Shown in pieces: positions 8,101 through 63,761 of a DNA stretch of 64,000 nucleotides (within the stretch, counting starts at the first letter, position 1; each line of letters begins with the position of its first letter). A model generated the notes under the pieces. That model made no database searches. It was not told the DNA's origin and saw nothing but the letters and a program-made list of their open reading frames with translations. A program made the translations under genes and the position numbers. Source of the stretch: Sphaerodactylus townsendi. Lineage: Eukaryota. The stretch is taken from contig NC_059425.1 of assembly GCF_021028975.2 (NCBI RefSeq), positions 24,242,001-24,306,000 on the forward strand, given 5' to 3'.

Positions 8101-11100
8101 CCCAAGTTTTCTGTAGATCTTTCTGGCCTGATCGAGACTGTTCCTCATCCTTCCTGACTGAGGATGTTGGCTGTTGCAACTGGGGAGAGCTGTAATGACA
8201 GGAGGAACCAAAGTGCTTGATGAGTGTGTATCTAGAAGGAATCGGTTCTAGGGAACACCAGCAGAGAATTGAAACCAAAGGTGGCAGCCTTGTAGTCAAT
8301 CATTGTAGATTGTTTACAGCAATGGTGCTTATTCTGCAGTTCGTGGAGAGCCGTATTCATAACTACTATGACATGAGGCCTGTCATGAGGCCTACACCTC
8401 AGGGAGGCTCATGTTTTACGTTTTCTTCTGGAAACCACCAGTCAAACACAAGCCACAACCAGGCCTTGTACACTTTTCTGAAACACATGGGTGCCATATT
8501 GGAGGATAGTCCTCTGAACAGCCACAAGGGGGCATAATAAAAAGAGCCACTCCCAGTCACAGGATATCACTGGTATTAAACAAAGTTTGTGTCATACTTT
8601 CAAGTCTCAGATGGCCTCTTTTTATAAAGTTCGCAGTAGCAGATATTACAAGACGTGGGGAAATGTGAGAATAGGGGTTGGAAGTGCCAAATTAGCTGTA
8701 CTTTTAAGTTTAACTTGATGTGTAGACAGGAGGAACTGACCCTCACAAATATGGACAATGAGGGAAACATGGGATCATAACCAGTACCTGAACTTGTTAT
8801 CCCAAATCAAAGCAACGTAGAGCTAGATACTCACATACGTTGTTCTGTGTTCACCTCTTCCAGAAATTCCTGGAGAGACAAAGAGAAAATACATCCCCAG
8901 TCCAAACTACTGTTAAAATTGGGGTTCATATATTTATTTTTAGAGCTTTTATACCCCCCAACTCTCCAGAATTTGCAAAAGTCATTAAATATGCTGTGCT
9001 TGGACTGTTGCATTGCAAGAGGCTCATAACTCCATACAAAAATAACTTGAATGGCCCATTCATTGCACAGTGAAAATAAAGGCATACTTGTACCACCACT
9101 ATTCTCTTTCTCATGCCAAAGTTCACTGTTGAAGGTCACCATTAAACATTGCTGGACACTCATTCATAGTCTGTCCTCCACTGATTAGAAAACACGCTTG
9201 TTGAAAAATTATTGCCAATAATGAAAGCAGTGGAACTCAAATTAATAAATCTTACTACATGTTTTATTAATTTTTATTGTATTTAGTTAGACTGTTTTAT
9301 TAATTAGATAGTTTTTTTCTGTTCCAATTGTTGATATAAGTTTAGTTTCTGGGAGATGTCCAGGAGCATACAGAACTTAGCCCACACACCCCTTTGACAC
9401 TCCTAGGATGTAATTTCATCAAGATGATGGATTTACAAATCAAAACACAAAGGACTTACAAGGAGGGTTCAAGATTCGCCCTTCTTTTCTCTTTTAACCA
9501 GACCCATGGCTGGAGCTTCGGATGTTGGGTGAAACCAGCACCCAACCTTCCTGGACCCATAATCTTCAGCACCTCACATAAGGACTATTTGCTGCTTTTA
9601 GATTTCCCGCTGCCAGGAACTCTCACTTGGAGCGTGATATCGCAAGAGTCCCTCGTATCCATTCACAGAAACTCGTGCTATGTATTGTGTTTCTGATTGC
9701 TCTCTTTGAAGTTAACAGCGTGATATTGTGTAACTCAATTTGCCTTTATGTAGCCTTTGATAGAAACGTATAAAACCAGTGGCGTATTTGCCTAGGGACA
9801 AGGGGTGCCCCAGGACTGCGTTTTCCCTAGATACGTCTCTGAGTCCCACAATTCCCAAAGTCGCCTTTTCAGCAGTTAAAGGGGATCCCTTGCTTCACTC
9901 GCCAGTTGAAAAGCTGGATACAACCCATTATGTGAGTGTATATGTGTGCACTCTATTATAAAAACATTATTTGTATGCGCAAGACATTAAAATACTAAGT
10001 AAAAGTGTCTCTATTAGGGTTGCCAGCTGCAGGATAGGAAATACCTGGAGAATTTAGGAGTGGAGCCTGAGGACAGCAGGGATGTTACTGGGGTATAATG
10101 CCATAGACCCCACCTTTCAAGCGGCCATTTTCTCCAGGTGAACTAATCTGTCACCTGGAAACCGTCTGTAATAGCAGGAGCTCTCCAGCCAGCACCTGGA
10201 GGTTGGAAACCTTATGACATTAGAAGCATTCCAACCTTAAAATGCAGACTTCTTTGCAAGAAGATCCTGGTTTTGAATGCAAACATTTAGCTATGGAACA
10301 TATGAAAAAATTTTTTTAAAAAAAATTAGTACTTCTGTGCCTGAGCATTCCATCAAAGTTTTAAAACAGGTACAAAGATTAGAAATCAAGAAAAAGCCCA
10401 GTGATTCTTGAGTAGACTACAGCAGGCCTCTCCCCCCTCCCCCCACATATGATGGTGATGGTTGCGCAGCAAGACAGCAAGAAATGCTCTCTGCTGACGT
10501 AAGACCTTGGCGAGAACCCTTGTACCTTGCTCAGTGTCCTGGTCTTCCCCGCCCGGTTCTCCTGATGGTCTGTGGTACTTGGCTTCTCAGCAACTCCTGC
10601 CATGTCCTCCTCAGCTTTCTGAAGGGGCAATTCTTGACCTTCACTGTCTTTGCCGAGCCCTGCTTTGGTTTCCTGCAGTTTCTTTCGCCCCTGGCTCGCC
10701 TCTCCTGGTTGCTTTGGCAAACTCCCCCAGCTGACTGTCAGAGGAGCAGGAGGGCCACATTCTGGACTGGTGCTAGTCTCGTCAGTGGTCCTGGCAGGAG
10801 CTGGGCTAGGCTGTTGTCTAGTGTAGTGATTGTGGGCAAAATCCCCTTTGGCTGAGGGCCTCACCAGTCTCCTTCTCCCTCGTGAAGGTTTTTCCTCCTT
10901 CCCCTCAGCCACGTCCAGAAAGGACCCAGGTGAGCTGGCTTTGCTGCTGGAGCCTTTGGAATCGGACCCATCAGTGCTGGGGGGTTTGCTGGCCAAGGCA
11001 ACAGCTGGGGGCTTCCAGCCCAGGGAACAGAGACTAGAAGGGCTCATTACTTGCTGAGTGATCTCATTGAGGAACTGTGAAAAACGCATCTTCTCGTCGG

Positions 11101-11971
11101 TCAGCTTCCTCCGTTTCATGTTGGGTGACTTCTTGGGGGCACTCAGATCTAGGCTGCTCGGGGGCTGCTTCTGTCGCTGCAGAGGACCAACAGGCCCAGG
11201 AGGAGGCCGAGATTCTCCTTCCAGCGAGCGTACAGTGATGGTCTCAATGGACTTTGCCTTCCGCAGCCGGTCACCTCTGGTAACTGCCCCGTTTTTCAAG
11301 ATCCCTTTGCTGGGGCCTGAAGCTGCAGTTTGGCGAGGTTGCCCTGGGGCAAGGATTTCGGCCTGCTCATTGAACATGAGACTGCGCTCTAGGCCGGGGG
11401 ACTTATACAGGCGTCTGTCAATGCTGTCGGTTTGACCTGGTAACAACTGGACTTCCTGATGGCCCTGGCGACGGGACAGCCGATCAGCGCTCTTGCTCTG
11501 GCCTTTCCTCAGCCGAACCATGGAACCAGATGGATCTCCCACCTTGTAGGCCACTTTCTGATCTCGGCCGTGATGGAAAGCACTGGCTTGACTTGAGATG
11601 TCCACGCAGGACTGAGAATGCTGAGAGTGAGGACTGGCCTTCAGGAAGGTCTTCTTGTTGAAACTGGCCTCTGAAGACCAAGATGCTGAGGAGGTGGAGG
11701 CTGTGGTGGAAGAGGACCAAGAGAGGGTAGAACCCCGATCACTGCGGCTGTCCGCCCACTGCTGGTGGCAGCTCCTCAGATCCATATCAGCAGCTCCCTT
11801 CCCCTCCTTGCCTGATGGCACGGGTGTGAAGAACTTCTCCATGACCTGCAGTTTACCAGCCGGCACTTCCACGCCTCCACCATGATTCCCCTCCCACTGG
11901 ATGGGAGCAAAAGCCTCTGCCTCTTGCTGGGCTTTCTTGTAGGACTTTCGGCGGATGGCTGAGGTGCTCAT
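355..11971 (-). CDS. Uncharacterized TJAP1/BEGAIN-family coiled-coil protein, ~906 aa; coding exons 11971-10526, 8179-8067, 7927-7861, 6724-6617, 1341-355
   Basis: Two long ORFs (10379-11971 and 355-1383) are joined by three small exons with canonical splice sites and matching phases (AAG|gtacaa; ccccag|TTG..AA|gtaagt; ctag|G..ATT|gtaagg; ctccag|GCT..AAC|gtgagt; ttttcag|ATC). The small exons encode ELESLKENFSKFQQDYSDTRQTNQLLEEKLQNIAQIMAEERQALNQRINELLERLVMSQNTLNTLEKLN, which resembles the TJAP1/BEGAIN coiled coil as I recall it. An AG sits 1 nt before the ATG, so an upstream 5' exon is likely. Confidence 0.75.
1352..1545 (-). mobile_element. Squam3-like tRNA-derived SINE, partial
   Basis: Has the (CTT) tail and body (cttcccttcctctccccacaaacagacatcttgtgaggtagg) shared with the other copies in the window. 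Confidence 0.65.
2121..2203. repeat. Compound trinucleotide microsatellite (ATG)n(AAG)n(AGG)n at a SINE tail
   Basis: Directly visible in the sequence. Confidence 0.9.
2204..2490 (-). mobile_element. Squam3-like SINE, full length
   Basis: On the minus strand: tRNA-like A box (TGGCGTAGTGG), B-box-like GGTTTGATTCC and a ggatataaatc tail. Near-identical to the copy at 24613-24906. Confidence 0.8.
3615..4144. mobile_element. Non-autonomous DNA transposon (hAT-like TIRs)
   Basis: Terminal inverted repeats CAGTGGTGGGATCC / GGATCCCACCTCTG. TSD is not clean. Confidence 0.55.
4370..6160 (-). mobile_element. Rex1/Babar-type LINE fragment (degenerate RT)
   Basis: Minus-strand motifs RIYSNHKPWMT, DYRP...IIMKCFEKLV, PQGCVLS..LFTLYTYDC and IIKFAD; many frameshifts. 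Confidence 0.7.
6940..7090 (-). mobile_element. 5S rRNA-headed Sauria-type SINE fragment
   Basis: On the minus strand ATCTCAGAAGCTAAGTAGGGCCGACCCTGG (5S-like), followed by aggcaatggcaagccatctctg. Confidence 0.55.
7095..7397 (+). mobile_element. CR1 LINE ORF2 fragment
   Basis: Encodes ERDLGVLVDHKLNMSQQ and MVPLYSAMVRPHLEYCVQFWAPQF. Confidence 0.85.
7415..7640 (-). mobile_element. Squam3-like SINE, diverged
   Basis: aaatcaaacctggttctccggattagagtcc..ttaaccacaatgcc matches the other copies. Confidence 0.6.
10016..10213. mobile_element. Non-autonomous DNA element with AGGGTTGCCA/TGG(C/A)AACC termini; related copies at ~40198-40406, ~40995-41192 and ~43752-43962
   Basis: Shared core gggtataatgccatag..cacc..ttttctccaggtgaactaatct in all four copies. 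Confidence 0.6.
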
Positions 11972-12624
11972 CCTAGAGCATTAGGACGCTTGGGCTAAGC
12001 CCATCTGTCGTTGAACATAGTTTACCTTCAAAACTTATTCAGCTACGCAGGTCTGTTCAGTAGAGCGGAAAATGAGAATGCCAATATAATGGGCACTGGA
12101 GCATTGGACTAAACAAAGAGAAGTAGGCCGAGTTGTGTCATTTGTTCCGCCTCCCCTGCCCCACCCCCTCAAAAGATCACATTTTGAATGCAATAGGATA
12201 GCCCAATGGAAGCGTTCTATTCACTATTCACCAGAACAGAAAGTACATGACACATTCCCAAGAAGTCTCCTATTGAAGAAACCCAGATTTTGTTGACTTC
12301 TGCCTGCAGACCACTCCCTAAAATGTGGTCGAGGAAAGCAAAACATTGTTGGGATACTACATCAGTTGGCTTTCCTTTCACCTACCTCTGACAGTCGTTG
12401 GATAGCACAGCTGAAGCAGACAGTGGCAGAGCAAACATACAAAACCCACTATTCCAAGCAAGATCACTAGTCTGTCTTGCTTGCTGTTGGCTGGCCGACT
12501 GGCTGTAGATTTAACATAAAGAGAGATCTTTTGCAGCATCTGCTGCCTGGGATCCTTTAGTTGGAGATGTCGTGGATTAAACCTGGAACCTTCTGCAAAC
12601 AGACCATGCTCTTTACTAAGGCGC

Positions 12625-13829: not shown

Positions 13830-13964
13830 CACAGGTGTCAAACTCGCAGCCCTCCAGATGTTATGGACTACAGTTCCCATCATCCCCTGCCAGCATCATT
13901 CTGGCAGGGGATGATGAGAACTGTAGTCCATAACATCTGGAGGGCTGCGAGTTTGACACCTATG
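13830..13964. mobile_element. Palindromic hAT-type MITE
   Basis: Near-perfect hairpin with 8-bp TSD CCCTAATA (13822-13829 and 13965-13972). Confidence 0.85.
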
Positions 13965-17777: not shown

Positions 17778-17909
17778 CAGCGGTCTGCAACCTGCGGCTC
17801 TCCAGATGTTCATGAACCACAATTCCCATCAGCCCCTGTCAGCATGGCCAATTGGCCATGGGAATTGTGGTTCATGAACATCTGGAGAGCCGCAGGTTGC
17901 AGACCCCTG
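17778..17909. mobile_element. Palindromic hAT-type MITE in the CDCA5 3' UTR
   Basis: Hairpin with 8-bp TSD CCCTAAAT (17770-17777 and 17910-17917). Confidence 0.85.
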
Positions 17910-18430: not shown

Positions 18431-21400
18431 TTATTCCACAAGAAGGTCAAACCTCTCTGCTTCGTCAAACTCTGCATTCATCTGGGCAGCCCATTCATCC
18501 AGCTCCGTCTTCTGAAAAGATAAGGAAAGACACATTTTATTCTTAAGTGTATTAATGGCAACCAAGATCAAGTTAATTCATGCTACTGAGTTCCTGTATG
18601 AAGAAACTGGTTGACTCTATTGAATTAACACCTGCGAGCCAACTCACTATTCTTTCTCGTTTTAACTACAGCTGTGAATGCTAAATAGCTGCCCACACTT
18701 ACTGGTGTGGCTGTTGCCTGGCATTAGAATTAGATGGAAACCTTAAGAAAAACTGGGTTTTGTAAAACAACAGGAGGAAGAGAGGTTGTATTTACTCCGA
18801 AACTGTGGGTTGTTTTGCTCGTTTCACTTGTTCTTTTTCAAGACCTCGTTGGATTTTGCTATTTGTTTTGTTCGATTTGTGGTTGTACAGAAAGCCTTTA
18901 TTGGCATGTTGAAAGAACACCGCAGCTACAAAACAAACCAATACAGCAAAACACATCCAATACAAACCCGCAAGACACAGCAGTCCATGTTCACATCTTC
19001 AACAAAAAGAAGGCCACCAATTCACATTACGCTAAGCCCGAACCACTCAACAACAAGCAAATTCTGTCTGCATCATACTGGCCATATTTGTTATGATTAC
19101 TATTAGCAAGAGACAGAAATTAAGACACATATTAAATCTAAAATTAATACCGCAGATAAACATTTCAGAGCTGCTACAGAGACATGCTAAATTCCAAGGT
19201 TAATATATTGTACTATAGGAATAAAATATTAAAGTAAGGTGGCATAATAAGGAAGAGAGAAGTGAATTGCTTATGCTCTAAACATCCTTAGACCCAATAC
19301 TGGATTATTTGCATTCAATTATTTCAAGGAGAAAGTTTGCCACAATCTCAGGGTTGGTATTATTCAGGAGAATTGGAATTGCAACCGAGTCAGCAGGGGC
19401 CATGGTGAGTAGTGGTATGGAATTTACATATCTATCTCTGACTCCCTTGGTTCTCAAGCAGTGAAAAAGAGAATGAGCTATGGTTTCAATCTGGGTTTGG
19501 TTGTAGTTTTATCAAGATTATTGAACCTGCCACATAAAAAAGCGGAGGGCATAACATTAAATCTGGCAAGCGTCAAGGCTTGCCGTTGTGTTGGGTTAAC
19601 CAGAGTAATTAGATAGTTGGCCATTTGGCCTTGGATCGGGGGTATTGCTAGATTAAGGGGTGAGCATGTCCTTTTCGCTGCCTTGATCAGTGTTTGAAAT
19701 TCCACATCAAGCAGTTTCCCTTTCAGGGTGTTATAAGCCTCAGTAAAGGTAAGCATACTGAGCGATTCCAAGGATAGGCCAATGGTTTCAATTTTGGTTT
19801 TGATAATATTTGACCATAACGTTGAATTGCTATCTTGCAGAAAAGAGTGAATGAAACTGGAAGAGTCCTGTTGATAATGGATTTTGAGCCAATATTTGAA
19901 TGCTCTTAACCAAGCCAAGGTCTCAAAAGTGATCTGTCCTGTTTCCAGGCAAATAGCAGCAAAGGGAACACAGTTAGGTAGGCCCATTATTTTGTGTAGA
20001 AATTTGGATTGTAGGGTGTTAATGGTTTTATTAACTGCAGAGATCCAAATTGGGGACCCGTATAACCGATTTGTGGTTAATTGTTGTTCCTACCGAATGG
20101 AAGAAGTTTGTTAAAATTGCTTGAACACATGTTGATGGCATTGGCGTCTGGACTCAGTGCTTGCGAGTGCAACATTCCAGAAATGGACCCAAGGGGGAGG
20201 CCCTTGAGAAATGAGGCGAGCTTATGCCCTTTTAAGCAGATCGAACTGTTCTTCATCTGCTGTAGAAGCAGCTCGTTCATATAGTATGCATGGGTGTGAA
20301 AGTTGGACAATTAAGAAAGCTGACAGGAAGAAAGTAGATTCCTTTGCGATGTGGAGTGTTACGGAAATCATGGCTTGCTAAAAAACAAATAAGTGAGTTC
20401 GAGATTAAATTAATCCTGAATGGTCCCTAGAAGCTAAAATGACTGAACTGAGGCTATCGTACTTTGGTCACGTTATGAGAAGATGAGAGCCGCTGAAAAA
20501 GACAATAATGCTAGGAAAGGTTAAAAACAGCAGGAAAAGAGGAAAACCCAACACGAGATGGATAGATTCATTCAAGGAAGCCTCGGCCCTCAGTGTGCAA
20601 CACCTGAGCAAGGCTGTTAACAATAGGATGTTCTGGAGGACACTGATTCATAGGGTCTCCTTAACAGCACTTAATACACACAAACTAGGTGGTCAAATGA
20701 GGACTGGTTTATCAGAAGTGTCAGGAAAGCCCAGCTGCTAATTAGCACTTTTCAGGGCAGACTGTTTCACAGTCACAAACAGAAAGCAGAACATTGACTA
20801 CTGGACACCCTGGACAGTGCATGTACACACATACAAATGCCAGTTTTTAAGATGTCAAGCAGACATTGCTTTCAAGCCACAAGGGCTAGAAACTTCCTTT
20901 AAAAACACAGAAACAGAAAAGGAAAGCTAAGGTTTGCAGGATGCCAAGATTTGCAAGATGACCACTTCCTGCTCTATTTGTTTCTGGATTACATCACCTC
21001 CTCTCCCACAATCGCTCCATGCATTTGACCAATGGCATCTTTTTCTGAACTTTTATCTCACTCTTTTAACTACAATACCTCAGTTATTCCTACAGGAATG
21101 ATCCTTTAGTGGCCCTCTGGCTTCTAAAATCCCAACCCACAAAAGGACTGGGCCACTGGGGTTATTTTCTCCAGCTGTGTCCCACAACGAATCCTTACTT
21201 TGAACTGCGGCACCTTCTTCTTCTTCCGTTTCTCCTTCATAAACGAAATGCCTGGGATGTCTGTATCAGGCTCCTTGGAGACGCTGGATCCCAGCAGTGT
21301 CGATGCCAACTTGGGGCTGGTCCTCGTGTCCTCAGGAGGCACGTCGTCGGAACCTTCTGGAACCAGCAGCTTGTCGAAACCAAAAAGCGTGTGTCGCTTG

Positions 21401-24400
21401 CTCAGGCCGTGGTTAGGCGTGGAGGTGTCTGAGAAGCCAGAGACAGGGGACTCCCTGCCTCTCACGAAGCTGTGGTTGAAGGAGACCTCCAGGCGGCTAT
21501 AGGACCGACGCACCCTCTTGGCCATGGCCATGTCCTGCTGATCCTCAGGTGGGGACTCCTGTGCATTGGTGTTAATTGGAGACAGCACATCTGCTCCTCC
21601 TAGCAGGCTCCCTGTCCCAGAGCTCAAAGGACAGCTTGGTGGAGAAGGTGCCAACTTGGCTTTGGTATCACCTTTTCCTGGGCTTTTGCCCTTGTCATTT
21701 CCCCCAAGGAGGTTCTCCTTGTCTTCTTTAAAGGAGACCTGCAATAGAGAAGAGGCCAATCTTCAGTACAAATATACAACAAGCTGGTGGAACTACTTGG
21801 CTCGCAGATAACATTCCACAAGGGTCGCGGCCCAGTGGCAGAACATATGCTTTACATGCAGAAGGTCCCAGTTTCAAACCTCAGCAGCTCCAGTTAGAGG
21901 CTGTCTAAAGCTCGTGTTAGTACAGTCTTTTTCCTGGCCTGAGATTCTGGAGGACTGGTGTCAGTCAGCTTCTGGCAGGTGAAAAAGAGGAAGCAGCAGC
22001 TGAGCTCCACCTGACCTAAGTTTGTCTGTCTCTCTCGGCAGGTAACTATAGAGCTTGGCCATGTCTAGAGGTGTGAGTCCTTGGGCACAAGCACAGGGCA
22101 AAATCCAAAGAGCTTTTGGTCCTTACACTGTGCTTGAGCGAGCCGCCTGTTGAACCTCAGCAAACCCGAAATAGACTGTATTGTCGAAGGCTTTCACGGC
22201 CAGATTCAACTGGTTGTGGGTTTTCTGGGCTGTGTGGCCGTGGCCTGGTAGATCTTGTTCCTAACGTTTCGCCTGCATCTGTGGCTGGCATCTTCAGAGG
22301 TGTATCACAGAGAGAAGTCTGTTACACACTGTGTCTAGTGAGAAAGGAATGTTTAGTGGGGTATATACTGTCCATGTCCCAGGGTGGGGAACCAATCAGT
22401 AAGTGTTTGGGTGGAACTTACTATGCAAGGGTGTGGTTGAGTGCATTGTATTGCGGGTGGGGTTAAGACTCCATTTACATTTGCAGTCGCATTTGCATTC
22501 CCTGCAGCAGCAGCAGCATTGGTGAATGCAAATCCTTTGTCTTGGTGGAGTCCATTGTCCATGAACTTAGCATGCCGTTGGCCTTTGATTCTGGTGTTTT
22601 TAAGTACTGGTAGCCAAGCTTTGTTAATTCAGGAATTTAGGAACAAGATCTACCAGACCACGGCCACACAACCCGGAAAACCCACCACAACCAGTTGAAT
22701 CCGGCTGTGAAAGCCTTCGACAATGCATTGTTGTTTTTGTCTATCCGGCTTATTTGTATTGTATTTTTCTCTTGCTATGGTAAGTCAACTCAAGTCCCTT
22801 CAAAGGGGAGCGGGGAACTAGACATACATTCAAAATAGAAATAAGATTGGGAAAAGCAATGGCCTGATCAAGGCAAGCCAGTTTCTCATTAAAGGTCCAT
22901 AGTGCAGTGGGGAAAGCAAAACGTTTCATGTAAAAGATTACAATTCAACCCCCTGGTTAAAAAGTTCTTAAGTAGCAACTCTGGGAAAGACTGTTCTGTC
23001 TCTGTCCTTGGCAAGGCACTGCCTATCAAGAGTAATGCTGGGCTTGAGAGATGAGTGAGTCTGATTCTGGGAGCTGAGTATGGTGGTACATTTTCTGCAG
23101 TGTTACCTGCCTGCCCACCTTGCAACCGTATGACAACAGATATCACTGTGACAGTGATACTTTCCCCCAAAAAGACAAGATGGCCACAGGACTGCTTATT
23201 GCCTGCCTCATCCAGAAGGCTCAAGGTGGATAACCGAAGAAAACGTCTTCAAATTAAAATGCATGGAAATTCTTCCTCAATTCTGCCCCAAAGCCTCTGT
23301 GAGGTATCGAGCTGCTTTAACTGCAATTTACGATCAGTGCTGCAGTTTTTAAATGACTTCAGCAGCTGCTTTGTGAAGATTTTTGAGCATGAACTAAAAG
23401 CTGGGTATACATTATTATCTAAATAAATAAATGTCAAAACACACACACGCAAGAAGCCATTTGTGCACTTATAGAATCAAGACAGTGACTAATCAGCTCC
23501 ACACAAACACAGGACAACTATAGACAATAGCAACCAAGGAAACAAAGACCAGGATACTTCTATTCAGATGCATTCACCTATTGACCTTACTATCTTCACT
23601 GTTACTCCCAGGCTACAGACTTCTTTGTGACTCACATACCAGGCTACTCTAGTCAGAGGGCCTCACCTTTTGACCTCACAGTATATATACTCCACTTGCT
23701 TTCCATTCCTACTATCAGATCCTCTGAAGATGCCAGCCACAGATGCAGGCAAAACGTCAGGAGAGAATGCTGCTAGAACACGGCCATACAGCCCGGAAAC
23801 CACACAGCACCCCATTTGTGCACTGTTAACTGAAGGTTTTGAGATCTGCATCGGCAGTTGTGACATGTATTGGAACTTTGGCTGAAACACTGGGTGGGGA
23901 GCAGAAAATTGCCTGCAACCTCCCCACTGCTGTAAGCACATAGAGGTTGACCAGAAGGCTGGTGCACAGCTGCCCCTGCTGCCATCTACTTTGTTCTGGC
24001 AGTAATAGGGCTTGGCACTGCTTGTGGACCTTCTGTCCTCACAATACTGCCAGGGCTGAAAGGTAACCCAACAAAAAATGGTCCTGAAATATCTAGAGAA
24101 TTCAGACTTCTCCTCCCTAAGTACTAACATGTACATCAGTCCCACGGAGTTCAAACAAATGCAGAGAAACTAACTGGCATTACTCTCATCTCAGGGTTAA
24201 GGAAGAAGCTGTTGGATGCCAACAGGGAGTCCGTCTCCTTTGCACTGCAAGACTCCAGCCATTGGTAATGAAAACAAGTGACAAATAGGGAGGGTGGTTT
24301 TCTAAGCCTTTCCCTTTAAAATCGGCCTTGCAACTGGGTGGCTCCAGCTTCCCTCTGTATGTGTGATGTTTGCTGACCAGTTCAAAGCTTTCATTTTCTT

Positions 24401-27400
24401 AAAGAATTAAGCAGAACTTGATGGTGCTTGGAAGACAATTCCTTTCTTAAATGTCTTCTGAATAACTTTTTTGCCCTCCAGTTGCCAAGGGCAGAAATCC
24501 TTATTGGCAAGCTCAGTGACGTGCTCCAATCCTGCACCATTGCAAAAACTCATTCAGCTCCTCAGCAGGCAGAGACTGAAATGGAGCTAACAGGCATGGA
24601 TTTTGCCCATAGAAGAAGAGTTTGGATTTATATCCCCCCTTTCTCTCCTGTAGGAGACTCAAAGGGGATTACAATCTCCTTTCCCTTCCCCACTCATAGC
24701 AAACACCCTGTGAGGTAGGTGGGGCTGAGAGAGCTCCGAAGAGCTGTGATTAGCCCAAGGTCACCCAGCTGGCATGTGTTGGAATACCCAGGCTAATCTG
24801 AATTCCCCAGATAAGCCTCCACAGCTCAGGCGGCAGAGTGGGGAATCAAACCCAGTTCCTCCAGATTAGAATGCACCTGCTCTTAACCACTACGCCACTG
24901 CTGCTTCCATAGCAACTATAAGAACAGATAACCAAGTAAGGTTATTTCCCAAGTTCCTTGAGGTGGCTGTTTGGACATATGAAGCACAAATCTAGAGGAC
25001 ACTTACCCGAGGACTGCGCCTGGGGGTTACGGTGGACTCTTTTATCTGATTTGGAAGAAAAAGAAAAGAAAACCAACATCCTCACATTAATGCAGTGCTC
25101 AGAATTCAAACCATTACTCACATTATCTTCTTGCACACCAACAACACTGTAATGTAAGCCAATATCTCCATATTGCAAATGAGGGGCTGAGAGAGATAGA
25201 GCAACTTGCATAAGGCCACCCAGAACTGAGATCTAAACTGACTCCTGAATCACGGCTCCGCCAACGAATGATGTAATACAGTGACAGTGAATGAATAGTA
25301 CATCTTACAGAGGCAACAGAGAGCTGTTATTGGAGCAAGCCCTCATGATCTGGAACTCCCCAGCTTGGGATCTTTTCTTGTTTGCCTAGAACTACAGAGC
25401 AGGCTTTAGCAAATCAACTTGCTTCTGCTTTATGCTACAGGGAACCACTTGTACTACATAAAGCAACCAAATTAGAAGTTTTGTTGGATTGCATCAACAA
25501 CAACCACTTTGTAGGCAGCATACGAACTTAATACAATGTAAAGACAGAGCTGCCTTATACTAAACAGCTCACTTAGCTCAATACTATGTGCTCTGATGAG
25601 AAGGGGCTTTCCATAAAGTTTTCCCTTCTGTCTATCACTATTGCCTGTGAACTATACTGGGCTGTATCTTAAAAGCTGCTGTCCTCACAAATGGCAGACA
25701 TCAGAAGACTCATAAATAAAACCTCTCAAAAGGAATAGTCAAATTAACAGTAACACTTAATCTCTGTAGAGTGCTATCAAGTCTTCAGAGCACTGTACAT
25801 GTAATATACTGGTACAATGCTTACCACAGCGCTGTAATGTAGGGGAGTATTAGTATTCTTATATTGCATATGGTATAAGTTGCATATCTGCCTCTAAAAA
25901 GAAAAACCTGCATATGCCCAAGTATAGAAACTGTTCTTTCCTCTGCTTTTGGTCACCTTAAAGAGAGGAAGAAACCAACACGTACAGTAAATATTTTAAA
26001 AAATGGATCCTCTGTGACAGCTGCTGATTAAAAGTGCATTCTGCATGTGTTATCAGATCACAGAATGAATTCACAGATGATCACACCATGAGGAAAACTG
26101 CTGCAAAACACCTAAACCCCCACGTACCTGCCGACTGCGTGGCACAATCTTTTTCAGAGTTATTGGCCTTGTTGCAAATGGTACTGGAACCTGCAGAGAT
26201 TGACAGAGCATGCGTTTTATCAGCGGATAGGTGCGTTACCAGAGATAGATAAGTGCAGTTGAAGACGGCTTGGCACAGCAGACAAATAACTTCACCACAC
26301 AGTAGCTTCACTTCAAAGAAGGAATTTTACTTTCAGGTGCAAGCTATATACAAGTGAATATCAAAGAACAAACCAGCAGCATGCCTCGCAGTAAACATAT
26401 ATCCCTAACAGCTAATGTGCACAGATAGTGCTCCACTATTATACAAACACTGCCCAATCACAGTGAAGGCCACATCACCGGACCAGACTGGTTTGATTCA
26501 GTTACATCAGGCTTTTGCCAACTGACCCTGGCTGACAGGTGCTGTCATCTAGATCTTCATGATCTGTGCACAAGATGCACACCTCTTTATTTTGATTCCC
26601 TGACAGAGATTACAGAAGACAACCCAGGTGAGATGCAGGAATCCTACCATAGTTTCAGTTCCAAACTCAGCTTTTCACACAGGTCATTTAGATTTCTGAC
26701 TGTGAACTCTTTGGCTATGAGGATCTATTTTTTTAGGTTACTTTGCAATGCACCGTGCATTTTGAGGGGGGCAAATAATGTATCCTACAATATCTTGATT
26801 TGTCTCTGCTTGCGTTGGCTTAAGAGGAGGCTTACATTACAGTCACAAGAAATACTATTAAGCAGAGCCAGCTAAAGATAAGTCAGTGTTGGGGACAAAT
26901 AATACAAATGGGGCTATTTGGTATGATCCAGTAGGATATTATGCTGTGCAAGCATTATAGCTCTCAATCATTCATTACAACTGGTCTTGTGCAACTCAAG
27001 TGGTATCCCATGTCTACACACAGCTGTCCACCCCAGACACTTTTAATGCTTCATGAAGATCCCAGGGACGCTGTAGGAACTGAACTGCCTGGAGGCACTT
27101 TTGAGGTAGATTTGGGTAATAAACTGAATAATCCCAACAGGATGGAAGTACTATTGGTAAAAGGAAGGCCTGAACCAGGACTGAAGGTGTCCTTTGTCTC
27201 AGTATGATTAAATTCCCCTTGAAGAAATAGCTTTGTACCTTGGAGCTGTTCCTAGATCAAGATCTACTGTTGGATAATCAGGCAGCAGCACACCTAGCAA
27301 CGCTTTTTACCAGCTTCAAGTGGTTTGCTATCTGAAGCCTTTCCTGCACAGAAAAGATCTGTCCACTGTGGTATATCATCTGGTGTCACCTACATTAGAT

Positions 27401-29006
27401 TACTATGCCGTATATGGGGCAGCCTTTGAAAAGCACTTGGAAACATAAACTGGAACAAATGCTGCAGCCAAAATTTTGACTGCAGAGAGTTACAGGGACC
27501 ACAGTCTTGGCTTATCTACACTAGTTCCCAATCTGTTTTCAACGCTAATTCAAGATCTTGATGTTGACCTTTGAAGCACCAAATGACTTAGAGACAACCA
27601 TACCTGAAGGACCACCTACTCTCATATGAACCTATCGGATCACCAAGGTTATCTTTTGAGACCCAGCTTTCAGTGCCTCTGCCTTCTGGGATGAGAGAGC
27701 CTTCTCGGTCGTCGAACCAAAACTATGCAACTCTCTCTCCAAGGATATTCATCTGTGTCCTCCTGTCATTGTCTTCAGCCTACGGGTGAAGACTTCATTT
27801 TGTATGGCATTTCATTCATGATCTCTCCTTTCACCCTATTTTTAATTATTGTTTTGCACACTATTTAATATTCTTTTAGTCTAGGTTTTAATTGCTTCTA
27901 TTATAGGTTTATAATTTGTTTTTCAACTGTTAGCTCCTTGGTAGCCACCTTTAGAAAGATAGAATTGCAAGCTTTGTAAACAAATAAATGATTCCAGATC
28001 AGTAGGATATGGACTTTGCGCTGCTAGGAAACTGAGGTGAGCGACAGTAATTTATCCCTGGGTCTCAGGTCACACTTAACCCCTCCCAGATCAAGCATTT
28101 ATGAAAAAAAAGCAACTCACTGGGCTGCTCATCATCTTGCTTGCCACCAACCGAGGTTTCCCTTGGGACACAGGCTGAGCAGTGGATGCCATGTTCCTTT
28201 CAGATCTGCGCCTTGGAGGAGAGCAAACAGCATCTGGAGGAAAAAGAGAAAAGAACAGGCCATCTTCAGAGCAACATATAATTTCTTGCCTTGAAATCCG
28301 CATGGTGTCTGGAGTTGCTACGGACCGTGCACTTTTGCAACTTGGCAACACACCCTTATATTGTTCCCTTGCAAAGAGACTAGCTCAGTTTAGGCAGGCA
28401 AGCTCTGAAGAACAAACAAGATGCCAAAAATCAAGCCAGCCCCATCCAGGCTAAACAGGAAACCAGGCCTGTCTGGTAAAAAGGCAGAATTGCATACACT
28501 CCAACAAGCCCTAAGGAGGTTGCAGTGACTGAATGTATAGCTTAAATATTTTGCTGTACTGCAGGTTGTTAGGGAACTGGTAGTCTGAGGACCAGTCCAA
28601 AGATAACATTACCCTAGTTATCAAAGAAAGCAGCTATACCAAAATGTTTTCTTTCCTCTTCCCATCCCTTATTTTAGGATTTGCATCTGACAGATTACAA
28701 GGCAGTGGCTAGTTTATCTCAAAGCTGCCCTGCGATGTAGGAGGATGAAAGTAAAGAGTTTAGTGGCTGAGCGAGAACATAAACGGCAATCCCGCAGTCC
28801 TCATAAACAAGAAACAATTCTGCAAGGAAACCCTCAACAGCCGAAATCTTTCACCATTCAGCTCTCAGCGAAGCTCTCACCAGGCAACGTTCCTATGGGT
28901 TTGTCACCCTCTCCCTCTCACCTGCCCCCGCGTCTCCAGCAGACCGAGCCCGCCTTAGACGACAACGAACGGGCCCACGGCCGCCGCCCTCTCCCCCTCC
29001 CGCCAT
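18431..29006 (-). CDS. CDCA5: Sororin (cell division cycle associated 5), 306 aa; coding exons 29006-28922, 28233-28121, 26190-26128, 25045-25007, 21738-21199, 18511-18431
   Basis: All introns are GT-AG and in phase. Motifs: RPITLKKIVPR, PRRSPR, KEN box (DKENL), VRRSYSRL (YSR), TLFGF (FGF motif), KKKKVPQF and the C-terminal ELDEWAAQMNAEFDEAERFDLLVE*. Head-to-head with ZFPL1, as in human. Confidence 0.95.
19300..20110 (-). mobile_element. Non-LTR retrotransposon ORF2 C-terminal fragment (RTE-X-like, tentative)
   Basis: The 169-aa ORF MGLPNCVPFAAICLETG..KYWLKI..LTLARFNVMPS has LINE C-terminal character and lies in a CDCA5 intron. Confidence 0.55.
20250..20682 (+). mobile_element. RTE/BovB LINE 3' fragment
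   Basis: Encodes GCESWTIKKADRKKVDSF, LRLSYFGHVMRR and MLGKVKNSRKRGKPNTRWID. Confidence 0.8.
22177..22727 (-). mobile_element. Penelope-like element: ORF 3' end plus pLTR, with an inverted partial pLTR
   Basis: Minus-strand peptide KAWLPVLKNTRIK (Penelope-like C-terminus); inverted arms at 22177-22263 and 22637-22727; contains a hammerhead motif. Confidence 0.75.
22260..22300 (-). ncRNA. Minimal type I hammerhead ribozyme (Penelope-associated), intact core
   Basis: On the minus strand: CCU CUGAAGA U GCCAGC CACAGAU GCAGGC GAAA CG UU AGG. This has both conserved core boxes, helix I CCU/AGG, helix II and the palindromic ACGU helix III. Confidence 0.7.
23640..23812 (+). mobile_element. Penelope-like pLTR fragment (second subfamily) with a degenerate hammerhead
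   Basis: TCCT CTGAAGA TGCC..GGC AAAACGTC AGGA at 23720-23762; GAAA is changed to AAAA. Confidence 0.65.
24613..24906 (-). mobile_element. Squam3-like SINE, full length
   Basis: Same family as 2204-2490; flanked by a CCATAG duplication (24607-24612 and 24907-24912). Confidence 0.8.
27090..27990 (+). mobile_element. Old L2-type LINE 3' fragment
   Basis: Degenerate (T)LDY..YMGQPLK..KLEQ and FKILMLTF motifs, ending in an aaataaa tail. Confidence 0.55.
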
Positions 29007-30692: not shown

Positions 30693-37130
<6,438 letters not shown>

Positions 37131-43242: not shown

Positions 43243-46200
43243 ATGGCGGCTCAGCCGGCCGAGCGCGGCCCTGAGCCGCCGGGGGGAAAGCGCAGGCCTC
43301 ACGGGATGCTGAAACTCTACTATGGGCTCCCGGACTCATCTGCAGAAAACTTGGCGGGCCCGGCCAGAGGGGAGCTCGGGGGCCCCACAGACATCAACGG
43401 GCCCCACTTCGACCCGGAAGTTTTCCTCACTAAGGTGATGGTTTCAGAACTCGGGCCCGTAGCAATAAGCCTCCCCCATACTCGTCTTTGGGGCAAACCG
43501 CTCTTCAGGGAACTTCCCTCTGTTCTAGAGTCACTCCCTCTTTGCAGATCTCACAGGGGGAGGCCCTTGCCAACGCTTGTCTGTTAAAACTGTGACGCTT
43601 GAAGCTGAATGCCTCTAATAATACTGAGATCTAGTTCCGCCACCTCCCACAACGATCACGAAAAAGAAATGTGCCTCTGAGCATGAACAGAGTTCTTTTG
43701 TTAGCGTTTTATAGCAGTTTGCAACAGTAGGGCTTGGGGATACCTGGGTTTCAGGTTTCCAGTGCCGGGTTGGTAAATTACTGGAGAGGTGGGGATGAAG
43801 CCTAGGGAGTGTGGTGTTTGGGGAGAGGATCTCAGTGGGGTAGATGTCCTAGAACACACCATCAAAAGCAGCTGTTTTGTTCAGGAAAACTGATCCTATA
43901 GTCTGGAGATCACTTGTAGCTTTGTGAAGTTTCCGTGACTCACTTAGAAGTTGGCAACCTTACTGGATTGAAATGTCAATTTTGCCATGAAGTTTGTGGA
44001 ATGATCTTGGGCTGGTCACTCTTAGCCTGACAGGTTCTTGTGAGGATAAGATGGAGAGTTGGAGTATGCTGCCTGGAGCAACTTGGGGTAAGAGTGGGAT
44101 GAAAGCATGATCAAAATGCCAAAGCCCAATAGGAAAGTAGTATACTTACAGAGTGAGATGGAGTTTCCATCTTTGGAGTTTTTAAATGGAGGCTGGATCT
44201 GTCTTTAATTGTGTGTTCCTGCATGGAAGGGAATTGGATGATCCCTTCCAACTCTATGATTGTATACTCAGTTTTCTCGCTATTTAGCATTTCTTTAGTG
44301 TCAAGGAGGTGCTGGACACAGTGCAGAATGTGACTGTCATCCAGGATTTTTGGCAGTTTTCTAAGGGAGGGGTGAGATTGCCACACAGATTAGCGAAGGA
44401 GTAGTAGGTGTTTGAGGGAGAAGTGTTGGGACCCCGGAGGTTTGCAAGAAAACTGAACCCACTCCCAATATTTCAAGAAATTAACACTGTATGGTTGCTT
44501 TAAAACTTCTTTATAACCTTACTTCGTTCTTAATTAGTGTCATTTTAATTGGTACGTTCAAATAATGTTACAATATAGGAGAATAAAAGCCAGAAAAAGC
44601 ATCTAAGTGCCTTTTGTTATGTGTTGCTTGCAGCATCCGAATAACATATGAAGTTTTCTTGTACTGAGAGAGTCAGCTTATCATCTGTCTAGCTAGCTAC
44701 ATATCGTGTACTTGAAATGGCAATGATTCAACAAGATTCCAGGCTGCTGTTCCTTTTCTCCATTGAGCCTGGTGCCTTTCCCTGTGGAGGGGGCCGTGAC
44801 TCAGTGATAATGTATCTGCTTGACAAGAAGGTTTCAGGTTCAATTCCCAGTTTCTCCAGTTAAAAGAATCAGGTGTGAAAGGCCTGAGATCCTGAGAGCT
44901 GGTGTGAGTCTGAGTTGACAGTGCTGACCTTAATATAATCTGATTCACCATAAGGCAGTTTCATTCATATATATCTGTATCTCTCTATCTATAGATAGAG
45001 AGATACAGATATATATGAATGAAACTGCCTTATGGCATTGATATTGCCTTATGATATATTGCCTTATGGTATTGATATTGATATATCTATAGAGAGATAC
45101 AGATATATATGAATGAAACTGCCTTATGGCATTGATATTGCCTTATGATATATTGCCTTATGGTATTGATATTGATATATATGGTCCGTACATCATGAGT
45201 CAAGCTAATGGTCCACTTAGGCTACAATCTTAAGGACTCTTTCCAACCAGTAAGCCCCACTTAACAAAACAGGCCTCTCTTCTCAGCTGACCTGCTCAGG
45301 ATTGCTCCTTTAGTCTTGCATTGTCTCATGCAGCTAGCAAGGGCTCTCTAGGAAGTTGGGCAAAGATCTGTGCCCTCCTTTAAGAGAAAAACATTTGCCT
45401 GAAATGAGGAGATCAAAATTAAGAGCCAGGAGGTGGGGCCAAATGGGGTCTGCTGCTTACTACTCTGTTCTGTGCACCAGATGCGGAAGGAGTGCCCACT
45501 GGCTCATCTGATGGACTGTGAGACTGACATGGTGAAGCAGATCCGAGCCCTGGACAGTGATATGCAGACACTGGTGTATGAGAATTATAACAAGTTCATC
45601 TCTGCCACAGGTACTGAAGGGACTCAGCCACCTGAGCCCTTCTGTCTTGGTGTATCCTTGGGTAGGGCAGAGTGGGGCTGCTGCTTTAAAAATCCTAAAG
45701 GAGACCTGTTTTTCTTCCCCAGTTATCGTTTCTATAGCTCCTACGTTTGCAGTTGGGTTAATCTCAAGGTCCACCTAATCTAGTGTCATGTTTTCACCAG
45801 TGGCTGAGCTGGTTCTTTCACAAACAGAGCCTGAATGAAACAGCTTTACCCTGCTGCTTGCCTCTCAGCAGCTGATAGTCGGCGTTCCGCTGCCTCTGAA
45901 CATGGAAGTTTATTTTATTTTTTAGGACTCATAGCTATTGGTATACATTTCCTCCTTTAATTTCTCTGATCTGTCTTTAAAAGTCAAGTGTGCCCTTGAG
46001 CATGGGCACATTTTATAACTGCACTTTTTCTGTTGAGCTAACCACCTCCCTGGAGATGTTGGTTCAGTGTCTGGAGGTCATGGCTGGATAAGTTGTCTAA
46101 ATTGCTGTCACTGACTATTGGGAATGTTTTAACTTATGTATTGATTGATGTTTTATTGTTTCAAACATGTATGTTAACTGCCCTGAGCCCAGCTTCAGTT

Positions 46201-59930: not shown

Positions 59931-60746
59931 AATGTTGTGGTACACCTACTCCTTTTAAAACCAACCATAGACTTTCACTAAAATATCTTATACACCTTTG
60001 GTCCATCAAAATCAGTACTATCTACTCAGTCTGGCATCAACTCTCCGGGGTCATAGGTAGAGGTCTTGCACATACCATACTACATGGTCTTTTTTTGGTG
60101 GAGATTCTGGGAATTGAACCTGGGACCTTCTGCATGCCAAGCAGAGAGGCTCTATCCCTGAGCCACAGCTCCTTCCATTGAACACTCTTGCTTGGGGTGG
60201 CGGACAATGTTAAATAATGTTTATTTCCAAGATGGAATTTCAAACTGACACATAAGAACTGAAGAGGTACAAATTGCCTTTGGTGGTGTGTGCTACACTA
60301 GCAGAAACTTGGTTCCAGCATATCAGGGAATGTTCCTGCGCAAGCCCCATGAAGTTTAATAGAAGCCTCACAAACAGATCTTGCACTAGAGAATGCCACC
60401 TATTGAGGCAACGCTTTGGGGGCTTTCCTGGTTTCCTTTTCCAAGCACCAGGCCCGCTTTGGAAGTCTGACAGGCTCCCGCCATGGCCTGTCCCTTCAAT
60501 CATTTTTTTCATCTCCAAACTGGCTACCTCCCAGTGTATTTTATGTTCTCTCTCGCCCGCTCTTGCGTGATAAGGTAATTTGCTGTGCAAGTTGCGCCAC
60601 TGCCGAGACTGGCGAAAGATCAGTGGTTGGGCAATGCCATAAACAAAGCACCCACTGTCCCTTTTGTGGTGGGAACAAACTGTCCTTTTTGGAGCTGGTG
60701 CCTTCAATCCTTGAGAAGTACCACGATCCATTGAGCAAGGGGAGAG

Positions 60747-61380: not shown

Positions 61381-61851
61381 GGCTGAGGGAATGTTAAGAA
61401 TTCCTGTCTTAAGCAAGCTAGCCTGCTTAGCCAAAAGGAGTGGCCCCTTCTGGTATTCAAGCAACACAAGTATCTACTATCCATATCCTTTACTCCAGCT
61501 CCAGGCTTCACACAGGCCTATCAGCTGATATTTCCTGCAGCAAACTTGCAAAAGTACAGAGAGCATGTATGCATCTTTAAATGTTGTGTACCCACATCGA
61601 TGGGTCCCAATGTTTTGCAGACATTTTTAAAAAGAACTGTTTTGGCCTTCTTCTCCCGCACAGTGCAGGAAAATTAAGCGTTTCAGACCAAAACAGTTCT
61701 TTTTTCCCACCTGCCACCTGATGAAGTTTGTCAGTTTCATTTTGTTGCACCCACCATTCTCATACTGAGTCGTCATATGGAGCTTCAAAGATGTCTCACT
61801 GAAAACCAAAAAAAGGAAAAACTTGTGGGCAGGATTACCAGTCTAAACTAA

Positions 61852-62010
61852 TGTATTGTCGAAGGCTTTCAAGGCCGGATTCAACTGGTTCTGGTGGGTT
61901 TTCCGGGCTGTGTGGCCATGGTCTGATAGATCTTGTTCCTAATGTTTCGCCTGCATCTGTGCCTGGCATCTTCAGAGGTGTATCACAGAGAAGTCTGTTA
62001 CACACGGTGT
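61852..62010 (-). mobile_element. Penelope-like pLTR fragment with a near-intact hammerhead (61938-61978)
   Basis: Same family as 22177. The core boxes are intact but ACGT is changed to ACAT in helix III. Confidence 0.7.
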
Positions 62011-63274
62011 CCACTGTGCCCTGTCTGCAACTGAACCTGGTTAGATAGTTAATCTGAAGTACAGCTAAGGATCTGTTGACCTCAGGATTATTGCTCATGA
62101 GTTGGCAAGATGGGGGTGGGGTGGGGAGAATGCCACTGGTAACGTGCTAAAAAGGCCGCAGGGGAATTTCCCTAGTATTTCCCCATTACACAAGTTGCCA
62201 AACAACTTTTTGAGTCAATACTGGGCTGTTGACGTATATCCTGGGGTATCCTGCAACAAGCAACATGCTCCAAGGGGGTTTATATGGGGCGATGGCAATC
62301 AGAGTCTGAGAAGAAAAGCGAGAGATACTTACCCGCTTTGTACAGGTACCACAATGCAGAAGTTTCATCCGCGAAGCAAACGTTGGAGAGCTCAGAGAGG
62401 TGAGTAATAAAAGAGCAATGGAGTTGGGGCACTAGCATGGAGGTGGGGAAGGATTTACCCTGTTTTGTGGCAGAGATGGCCCATAATTTGGTTGAAGACC
62501 AGAATACCAATCTGTTTCCAGCTCCTGTTGCTATGCCTTTATCAGAGGCATGATCTACAAGCTTTAAGGAGGTGTTTGTGCTTATCTTGAAAAATTTGTC
62601 TTACTGATTTCTGCAAATCAAATTGCTATTTAAGGCAATGCACCAGGCCAGGCTGGGTTCCTGCTCCCTGGTCAGTTGGCAACTGTGGTTTAGATTACAC
62701 TCAGCGCATAAAAGGTTCTATGTTTGATTTCCAGCATCCAAACACAAAATAATTCCTGACATCACAGCTGGGAAACATCTTTCTTTGAAAGTCTCACCTG
62801 CAGAATGTCTGAATACCATGCAACTGCTAAAGGCACAGGAGTCCTGCCAGGAAAAGAACTGGCAACACTTTGAGATTGGCAGGAAAGGAGAGAGAAAAAT
62901 TGCTTTCAAGACCAACTGTGACAGACAGCTGTTTTACTGTGCGGGAGCCCTTGTATAGATCTCAAGCGTTCAGAATATAAGCATTATCCCTGATCTGAAC
63001 CTAAATTCTGGGGCTGCCTGTTGGAGTGGCACTTGTCTGAACATAATGGCTGGAGGGAGGTTTGATCCTTTGCTCTCTATGGTATCCTGGCATTATCTGG
63101 ATTATAAGAGCGGGGTCACCAAGGCACAATAATGCCACAATTCTGTGTGAAGCAAAACAAGGCAAGAGACTGGCTCCTGTTCACAGAGAGATGGTGGAAG
63201 GCTATCAGGTCTTGCAGTGTATTAGTCCTGCCAGCTTGCTGTTTTAAAAAGTGTTGGCATTCAAAAGTGTTGAC

Positions 63275-63385
63275 TTCTCTCTGTGATACACCTCTAAAGA
63301 TGCCAGCCACAGATGCAGGTGAAATGTTAGGAACAAGATCTACCAGACCACGGCCACACAGCCCGGAAAACTCACCACAACCTGT
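63275..63385 (+). mobile_element. Penelope-like pLTR fragment, degenerate hammerhead (63291-63331)
   Basis: CTAAAGA replaces CTGAAGA; GAAATGTT. Confidence 0.65.
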
Positions 63386-63761
63386 TGGCATTCAGTCTCT
63401 CTCCAACAACAGTGTTGCTTATTTATTTATTATTTATTATTTAAAAGTATATGTCGCCTCTCTAGAGACCAGGTGTTCTTCCAGTTGCCTTCAGCTCTAA
63501 CTAGCTGACAGTTGAGTTACAAGATTTTCTCCTGACGTACCTTTGTAGACACACACAAAAAGTTAATGGTGGGCAATGACCCTTCTCTTCAGGATACTCA
63601 AAGCAACAAAAAACAACATGACAGAACAGAGGCAGGCCAATGTTACAGCCAAGGTCGGTCACAGCCAAAGCAGCCAAGCTAGTTAGAGGCCAATAAACCA
63701 TCTGCTTGGAGCTGAGCAAGTGAGCTTCCTGCCCTCCAGCATTTCACAAATAGATCTAGGA

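What the first reader, a model, noticed from the sequence alone, without database searches (positions are those of the whole stretch)
22260..22300. Intact minimal hammerhead ribozyme in sense orientation within CDCA5 intron 4
Seen: on the CDCA5 strand, CCU-CUGAAGA-U-GCCAGC(CACAGAU)GCAGGC-GAAA-CG-UU^AGG, with every core nucleotide retained. It is the only one of six hammerhead cores in this window with no lesion. Established: Penelope-like elements carry minimal type I hammerheads with a palindromic helix III that are thought to cleave as dimers. Inference: a latent self-cleaving site in the pre-mRNA of an essential cohesion gene. It is probably weak as a monomer, but could be activated in trans by another pLTR transcript.
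Basis: partly seen in the sequence, partly recalled or inferred. Interest (0 to 1): 0.7.

Follow-up and report, generated by a model that had tools for sequence, protein, structure and literature searches.

The report
Hairpin-locked Penelope hammerhead in CDCA5 intron
This self-cutting RNA motif is one of about 14,700 undamaged copies that Penelope-type jumping genes have spread through this genome, and in the CDCA5 intron its cut site is predicted to be sealed by the element's own mirror-image copy, so it is likely an ordinary, inactive passenger.

Summary
The minimal type I hammerhead lies at 22300-22260 on the CDCA5 strand, in intron 4 of a six-exon model, and is the only lesion-free core of six in the window. 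It is not special: the genome has 2,791 identical 41-mers and 14,702 lesion-free cores, and 11 of 30 copies picked by their flanks are intact. It belongs to the end repeat of a truncated Penelope-like insertion (22177-22727) whose spacing matches the Anolis element PAc. The insertion's inverted arm (22637-22727) is transcribed first and is predicted to pair with the cut site in an ~88-bp duplex (pairing probability at least 0.96, helix I zero, 13.7 kcal/mol penalty). No same-strand partner lies in the gene. Published minimal hammerheads were inactive as monomers, weak as dimers or protein-dependent. In a trans dimer the partner's core would cut, so this copy's intact core is irrelevant to its own cleavage. 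Rfam gave no hammerhead hit; no RNA run was listed. The scan noted similar stubs in other genomes, one also hairpin-locked. Verdict: ordinary, likely inert.

The parts
22260..22300 (-). Minimal type I hammerhead motif: 3-bp helix I (CCU/AGG), core CUGAAGA plus an extra U, helix II of 5 bp with an A-A mismatch, GAAA, palindromic ACGU helix III with no loop, GUU triplet, cut at 22263/22262
   Evidence: 2,791 exact copies in the genome
22177..22355 (-). pLTR / 3' end of a Penelope-like element; the upstream edge is approximate. It holds the element's start codon (ATG at 22291-22289, 26 nt before the cut) and ends at +115 from the ATG, the family's long-tail end
   Evidence: same spacings reported for Anolis PAc (PMC11167929)
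22356..22628 (-). Remnant of the C-terminal end of the Penelope ORF (INKAWLPVLK...), continuous in relatives with a GIY-YIG-like region
   Evidence: 83% identical to the L123 frame over aligned columns; L123 matches the element continuously at the DNA level; weak PF01541 hit on L123, E 0.012, below cut-off
22637..22727 (+). Inverted, 5'-truncated pLTR copy beginning 2 nt before the cut site; on the CDCA5 transcript it is the antisense arm predicted to pair with 22264-22177
   Evidence: 92-93% complementary; duplex -157.6 kcal/mol
23721..23806 (+). Separate Penelope pLTR fragment of the GUC subfamily with a G12-to-A lesion, antisense to CDCA5 in the same intron; it cannot be a cis dimer partner and is complementary to the core
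   Evidence: duplex -131.1 kcal/mol when folded as a separate pair
21739..25006 (-). CDCA5 (sororin) intron 4, the host intron
18431..29006 (-). CDCA5 coding span: exons 29006-28922, 28233-28121, 26190-26128, 25045-25007, 21738-21199, 18511-18431
   Evidence: model built by hand, no RNA data

Best explanation
This is one ordinary copy of the hammerhead motif carried in the end repeat of a very abundant Penelope-like retroelement, left in CDCA5 intron 4 by a truncated insertion, and it is predicted to be inactive there because the element's own inverted arm would pair with the cut site. Shown: the sequence, the host intron, the copy numbers, the element anatomy and the complementarity of the arm. 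Inferred: the insertion arose by reverse transcription starting at the family's +115 site, with a second truncated copy joined in inverted orientation. RNA polymerase II makes the antisense arm first; once 22264-22177 emerge they would form an ~88-bp duplex that holds U16.1, U17 and the 3' strand of helix I, so neither a monomer nor a trans dimer could assemble on this site. The hairpin would be spliced out with the intron. The core is likely intact by chance of limited decay, not by selection.
For: 2,791 exact and 14,702 lesion-free copies, evenly split between strands, controls 0. 11 of 30 flank-picked copies are lesion-free and 6 of 30 identical, with most changes at the two CpGs. This copy differs from the family majority at 6 of 162 positions, most of them family-variable sites. 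Folding 22150-22760 pairs 22263 at 0.96 and 22262-22260 at 0.996 or more with the arm; helix I probability is 0 and forcing the hammerhead costs 13.7 kcal/mol. 17 of 27 exact-core copies have such an upstream lock, a layout described for PLEs (PMC8557442). The other same-strand cores (32546-32586, 61938-61978) lie outside the CDCA5 coding span and are damaged. The modelled double hammerhead of two 41-mers (-11.7) is less stable than two monomer folds (-14.4). Literature: a single minimal HHR showed no cleavage and dimers little (PMC4209133); the PAc HHR cut only with protein and no RNA-seq reads ended at its site (PMC11167929); 1 of 9 Xenopus dimers cut, and 42-44% of retrozyme copies overlap introns (preprint).
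Against: All core positions are intact and the motif is sense to an essential gene. Folding is an equilibrium nearest-neighbour model without hammerhead tertiary energy, proteins or transcription kinetics; without the arm, helix I has about 0.10 probability. The homologous PAc hammerhead does cut with its protein. The flank-picked sample favours less diverged copies. Both insertion junctions are present in all 4 runs laid (3 samples, 1 study, two organism labels), so the insertion has persisted, and I could not read its core in those runs.
Confidence: 0.9

Rival explanations
1. Latent site cut in trans: another pLTR transcript, helped by Penelope protein, pairs with ACGUU/AGG of nascent CDCA5 RNA before the hairpin closes and cleaves a fraction of the pre-mRNA.
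For: Substrate nucleotides are intact; thousands of intact cores could supply partners; PAc protein enables cleavage in vitro.
Against: Only about 7 intermolecular base pairs; the modelled dimer is less stable than monomer folds; the site is predicted to be duplexed; the longest open frame among the 150 scored (of 9,324 candidate) endonuclease-region matches is 448 aa, so no full-length ORF was seen in that subset; no RNA ends were seen at the PAc site in Anolis. This route does not need the CDCA5 copy's own core.
Confidence: 0.04
2. Domesticated intronic ribozyme that tunes CDCA5 splicing or dose, like the conserved amniote intronic hammerheads (RECK and others).
For: Intronic, sense, intact core; precedent described in PMC6155905 (passages).
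Against: Identical to thousands of repeat copies, still inside a whole retroelement stub, no added helix III or extended helix I, no Rfam hammerhead match, cut site predicted to be sequestered.
Confidence: 0.02
3. The inverted arm begins at the cut site because it was copied from a ribozyme-cleaved RNA, so the insertion is a fossil of cleavage in vivo.
For: The arm starts 2 nt before the cut. A whole-genome pattern for breaks exactly at the cut gave 72 matches against 40 at a control position 3 nt downstream.
Against: In 92 fetched of 983 matches, 67 were junctions; 1 lay exactly at the cut and 8 at +1 to -2, against 6.5 expected if uniform over 31 positions, while position +8 alone had 8. By eye, 15 of the 72 end in GCA, which fits a deletion between the two CCT repeats. 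The arm keeps both U residues 5' of the cut. PAc inserts from uncleaved RNA.
Confidence: 0.04

Closest known systems
Minimal type I hammerheads (min-HHR) in pLTRs of metazoan Penelope-like elements (Cervera and de la Pena 2014, PMC4209133; parts 1-2 of 4 read)
   Same: [quoted passage not shown]
   Different: Helix I is 3 bp and helix II 5 bp with an A-A mismatch, against 4-5 bp and 7-8 bp described for the Schistosoma motifs. Activity untested here.
PAc, the Poseidon element of Anolis carolinensis (Frangieh et al. 2024, PMC11167929; parts 1-2 of 4 read, figures not seen)
   Same: ORF starts at stem II; cut 26 nt after the start codon; genomic copies end at two sites about 36 nt apart, the distal one at +110 to +119 (35 of 97 ends) against the reported RT start at 111-118; C-terminal GIY-YIG-like region.
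   Different: This is a 551-bp truncated non-coding stub. No sequence comparison with PAc was possible (supplement search found nothing), so the clade is assigned by layout only.
Conserved intronic hammerheads of amniotes (RECK, DTNB and others; PMC6155905, passages)
   Same: Type I hammerhead on the sense strand of a host intron.
   Different: Those are conserved across amniotes. This one is a high-copy repeat without a helix III stem-loop, has no Rfam hammerhead match and shows no sign of host selection.
Animal non-LTR retrozymes (PMC7229834, passages; bioRxiv 10.64898/2026.07.22.740005, parts 1-3 of 5)
   Same: Type I hammerhead in a pLTR-derived repeat.
   Different: Retrozymes are tandem arrays that supply cis partners; this copy is solitary and carries an ORF remnant and an inverted arm.

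Membership tests
Minimal type I hammerhead of PLEs | Conserved core CUGANGA ... GAAA ... UH | tested here: met
Minimal type I hammerhead of PLEs | Extra nucleotide between 9 and 10.1, G10.1-C11.1 pair, palindromic 15.2/16.2 | tested here: met
   U at 22290, G22289-C22271, ACGU; features listed in PMC4209133
Minimal type I hammerhead of PLEs | Helix I of 4-5 bp and helix II of 7-8 bp (sizes given for the Schistosoma families) | tested here: inconclusive
   3 bp and 5 bp plus A-A here; these sizes are this subfamily's norm, and 19 of 20 GUC-subfamily copies have a 4-bp helix I
Minimal type I hammerhead of PLEs | Location in the pLTR of a Penelope-like element | tested here: met
Minimal type I hammerhead of PLEs | Self-cleavage as a dimer or with protein | not testable with these tools
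   folding models only
Rfam hammerhead families | Covariance-model match | tested here: not met
   no hit at E up to 10; also none in 7 control loci holding intact family copies
EN+ Penelope/Poseidon element | ORF with a C-terminal GIY-YIG endonuclease | tested here: inconclusive
   window holds only the last 91 codons; linked copy L123 gives PF01541 at E 0.012, under the cut-off; L125 gave no GIY-YIG hit
EN+ Penelope/Poseidon element | Telomerase-like reverse transcriptase and clade placement | not tested
   no RT sequence in the insertion; no tree built
EN+ Penelope/Poseidon element | 5' truncation, adjacent inverted truncated copy, 30-40 bp tail | tested here: met
   layout in PMC8557442
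Domesticated amniote intronic hammerhead | Low copy number and conservation at the orthologous intron across species | tested here: not met
   2,791 exact copies; cross-species conservation not testable here, as only close samples were available
Non-LTR retrozyme | At least two tandem units with complete hammerheads | tested here: not met
   single same-strand copy in the gene

The most novel reading that the evidence does not exclude
When Penelope elements are derepressed, their protein and pLTR RNA assemble a trans double hammerhead on nascent CDCA5 RNA before the mirror-image hairpin closes and cut intron 4, lowering sororin. The inverted arms that lock most intact copies would then be what lets thousands of sense-strand intronic hammerheads persist, predicting a genome-wide deficit of unlocked, intact, sense-intronic copies.
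Probability: 0.04. Interest if true: 0.65.

Novelty: new member of a known kind. Interest (0 to 1): 0.08.

Why it matters
As read here it matters little: it is one of thousands of equal copies of a described motif. The useful lessons are that an intact core in a gene's intron is expected in such genomes (about one lesion-free core per 123 kb) and that the element's inverted arm should be checked before a cut site is called latent. If cleavage did occur in vivo, it would be evidence that dispersed Penelope hammerheads act on host pre-mRNA, which the papers read here leave open.

Tried and rejected
Rfam scans of the window, of 22150-22450 and of 7 control loci found no hammerhead family. No RNA holder was listed; this says nothing about expression, and the proposed search for RNA ends could not be done. 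Laying DNA contigs could not resolve the core of this copy because the repeat swamps it. The 41-mer alone folds no better than shuffles (z 0.02) and its best fold is not the hammerhead. I tested the idea that the inverted arm marks ribozyme cleavage and found no peak in 67 junctions (92 of 983 matches fetched, 25 set aside as indels or internal deletions, 8 of the 100 listed not fetched); the 72 versus 40 pattern count rests on one control position and is mixed with small deletions. Pfam found nothing on the window's ORF remnant or on L022. Lunse et al. 2017 on dimer cleavage was not held; I saw only its title and a review's summary (PMC6765202, passages). A search for CDCA5 plus hammerhead found 0 papers; hammerhead ribozyme plus intron, lizard and Penelope found 1. 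The PAc supplement held no searchable sequence, and its figures and the preprint's supplements were not visible; they may bear on the clade assignment. Orientation bias of intact copies in introns could not be tested without a gene annotation.

Full report
Observation. I rebuilt the host gene by hand: six exons with GT-AG introns give an open 306-aa frame, and exon 5 matches Pfam Sororin_middle. The motif lies in intron 4 (25006-21739), sense to CDCA5. BLAST finds six cores in the window. The other five carry G12-to-A, G5-to-A, U4/G8 or helix III lesions. A descriptor that demands core and helices hits once here and never in 100 simulated windows, so the motif is not chance, although the loose core pattern alone is (4 against 7.3 expected). 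Rfam gives no hammerhead hit. It also misses intact family copies in 7 control loci, so this reflects the models, not this copy.

What it is. The motif sits in a 551-bp insertion at 22177-22727. On the minus strand it runs: an inverted pLTR fragment (22727-22637), the last 91 codons of an ORF (22628-22356), then the pLTR with the hammerhead, ending at 22177. The ORF remnant is 83% identical over aligned columns to a frame in locus L123, which matches the element continuously and extends upstream into a GIY-YIG-like region (PF01541 E 0.012, under cut-off). The spacings match the Anolis Poseidon element PAc (PMC11167929): an ATG at the start of stem II, the cut 26 nt after it, and genomic ends at two sites. 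Of 97 aligned ends in 56 fetched loci (some loci overlap), 46 fall at +75 to +89 and 35 at +110 to +119; this copy ends at +115, within the reported RT start of 111-118. A truncated copy with an adjacent inverted copy and a 30-40 bp tail is the described PLE layout (PMC8557442, passages). The species was not identified; a lizard is my inference from these resemblances.

Is intactness remarkable? No. The same 41 bases occur 2,791 times in the 1.81-Gb genome, and a pattern that fixes the core and pairing positions matches 14,702 times, about once per 123 kb, equally on both strands. Among the first 30 of 6,554 copies picked only by their flanks, 11 are lesion-free and 6 identical, and changes cluster at the two CpGs. 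That sample favours less diverged copies, but one intact core in six fits simple decay. This copy differs from the family majority at 6 of 162 positions, most of them variable in the family. It belongs to the GUU subfamily with a 3-bp helix I. Most of the first 100 listed intact cores are a GUC subfamily, in which 19 of 20 fetched copies have a 4-bp helix I. That GUU is a poorer triplet than GUC is recalled, not tested. In Xenopus 42-44% of retrozyme copies overlap introns (preprint), so an intronic site is also ordinary.

How it most likely behaves. Helix III has no loop, so it needs a second copy. No other same-strand core lies in the CDCA5 coding span; the neighbour at 23721 is antisense and damaged. 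The inverted arm is 92-93% complementary to 22264-22177 and is transcribed about 370 nt earlier. Folding the insertion pairs U17 (22263) at 0.96 and the AGG after the cut at 0.996 or more with that arm, gives helix I zero probability, and costs 13.7 kcal/mol to force the hammerhead; the arm duplex is -157.6 kcal/mol. Such a lock precedes 17 of 27 exact-core copies examined (three loci dropped as overlaps). Without the arm, helix I reaches about 0.10, and a double hammerhead of two 41-mers (-11.7) is less stable than two monomer folds (-14.4). These models lack tertiary energy, proteins and kinetics. The literature agrees in direction: a single minimal hammerhead did not cut and dimers cut weakly (PMC4209133); the PAc hammerhead cut only with its protein, cleavage was not needed for insertion, and no RNA-seq reads ended at the site; 1 of 9 Xenopus dimers cut.

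The trans idea. In a double hammerhead each core cuts the other copy's UH site (inference from the architecture). CDCA5 RNA would be cut by a partner's core, needing only ACGUU/AGG, which is the part that is predicted to be duplexed. Protein help would need an intact element; among 150 scored of 9,324 candidate endonuclease-region matches the longest open frame is 448 aa, which does not exclude one elsewhere.

A lead followed and dropped. The inverted arm starts 2 nt before the cut, which could mark a cleaved template. Of 983 pattern matches I fetched 92; 67 were junctions, 1 exactly at the cut and 8 at +1 to -2 against 6.5 expected. A whole-genome count gave 72 breaks at the cut against 40 at one control position, which leans the other way, but by eye 15 of the 72 fit a deletion between two CCT repeats, and positions vary several-fold. 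I rate it unlikely.

Other samples. Single-copy contigs enter the insertion from both flanks in all 4 runs laid (3 samples, 1 study, two organism labels), so the insertion is shared among them. The core of this copy could not be read there. No RNA run was listed.

Comparison and verdict. It works like, and by sequence and position is, a PLE minimal hammerhead; activity is untested. It fails the tests for a domesticated amniote intronic hammerhead (copy number) and for a retrozyme (no tandem). A search for CDCA5 with hammerhead found no paper. Earlier notes of this scan describe the same kind of stub in other genomes, one also hairpin-locked (looked up); none lies near this place. New member of a known kind, interest 0.08.

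Noticed in passing
L008:1437-3002 (G000:C1:4702437-4704002): Tandem array of about 14 units of ~109 nt, each a pLTR piece with the hammerhead; three units have the exact intact 41-mer. This retrozyme-like array is where cis dimers could form. The later units are rich in small indels and may partly be assembly error.
   Followed up: partly
window 32462-32702: Two damaged pLTR copies back to back on opposite strands, joined near 32604; the typical inverted Penelope stub.
   Followed up: partly
window 61850-62011 and 63272-63387: Two more pLTR copies on opposite strands, each with a CpG-type lesion in helix III.
   Followed up: partly
genome-wide, listing and L158-L177: A GUC-triplet subfamily with a 4-bp helix I makes up most of the first 100 listed intact cores and looks more uniform; it is the better candidate for cleavage assays.
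   Followed up: partly
window 22177-22264 with 22637-22727: The predicted ~88-bp intronic RNA duplex would be a likely A-to-I editing substrate (inference; no RNA data).
   Followed up: no
window 22291-22178 (-): The hammerhead overlaps the first codons of the element's ORF (MPATDAGETLG...), which may explain why the A-A mismatch in helix II is kept in the family.
   Followed up: no
window 19478-20089 (-): 203-aa open frame in CDCA5 intron 5 that looks by eye like the C-terminal part of a LINE ORF; no Pfam hit.
   Followed up: partly
window 10379-11980 (-): 533-aa open frame downstream of CDCA5, probably a large exon of a neighbouring gene; no Pfam hit.
   Followed up: partly
window 13856-13938, 17796-17891, 44950-45033: Near-perfect short palindromes that give sub-threshold Rfam miRNA hits on both strands; likely miniature inverted-repeat elements.
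   Followed up: no
window 60099-60172 (-): tRNA-like match above Rfam's gathering score (33.1 bits); possibly a SINE head.
   Followed up: no
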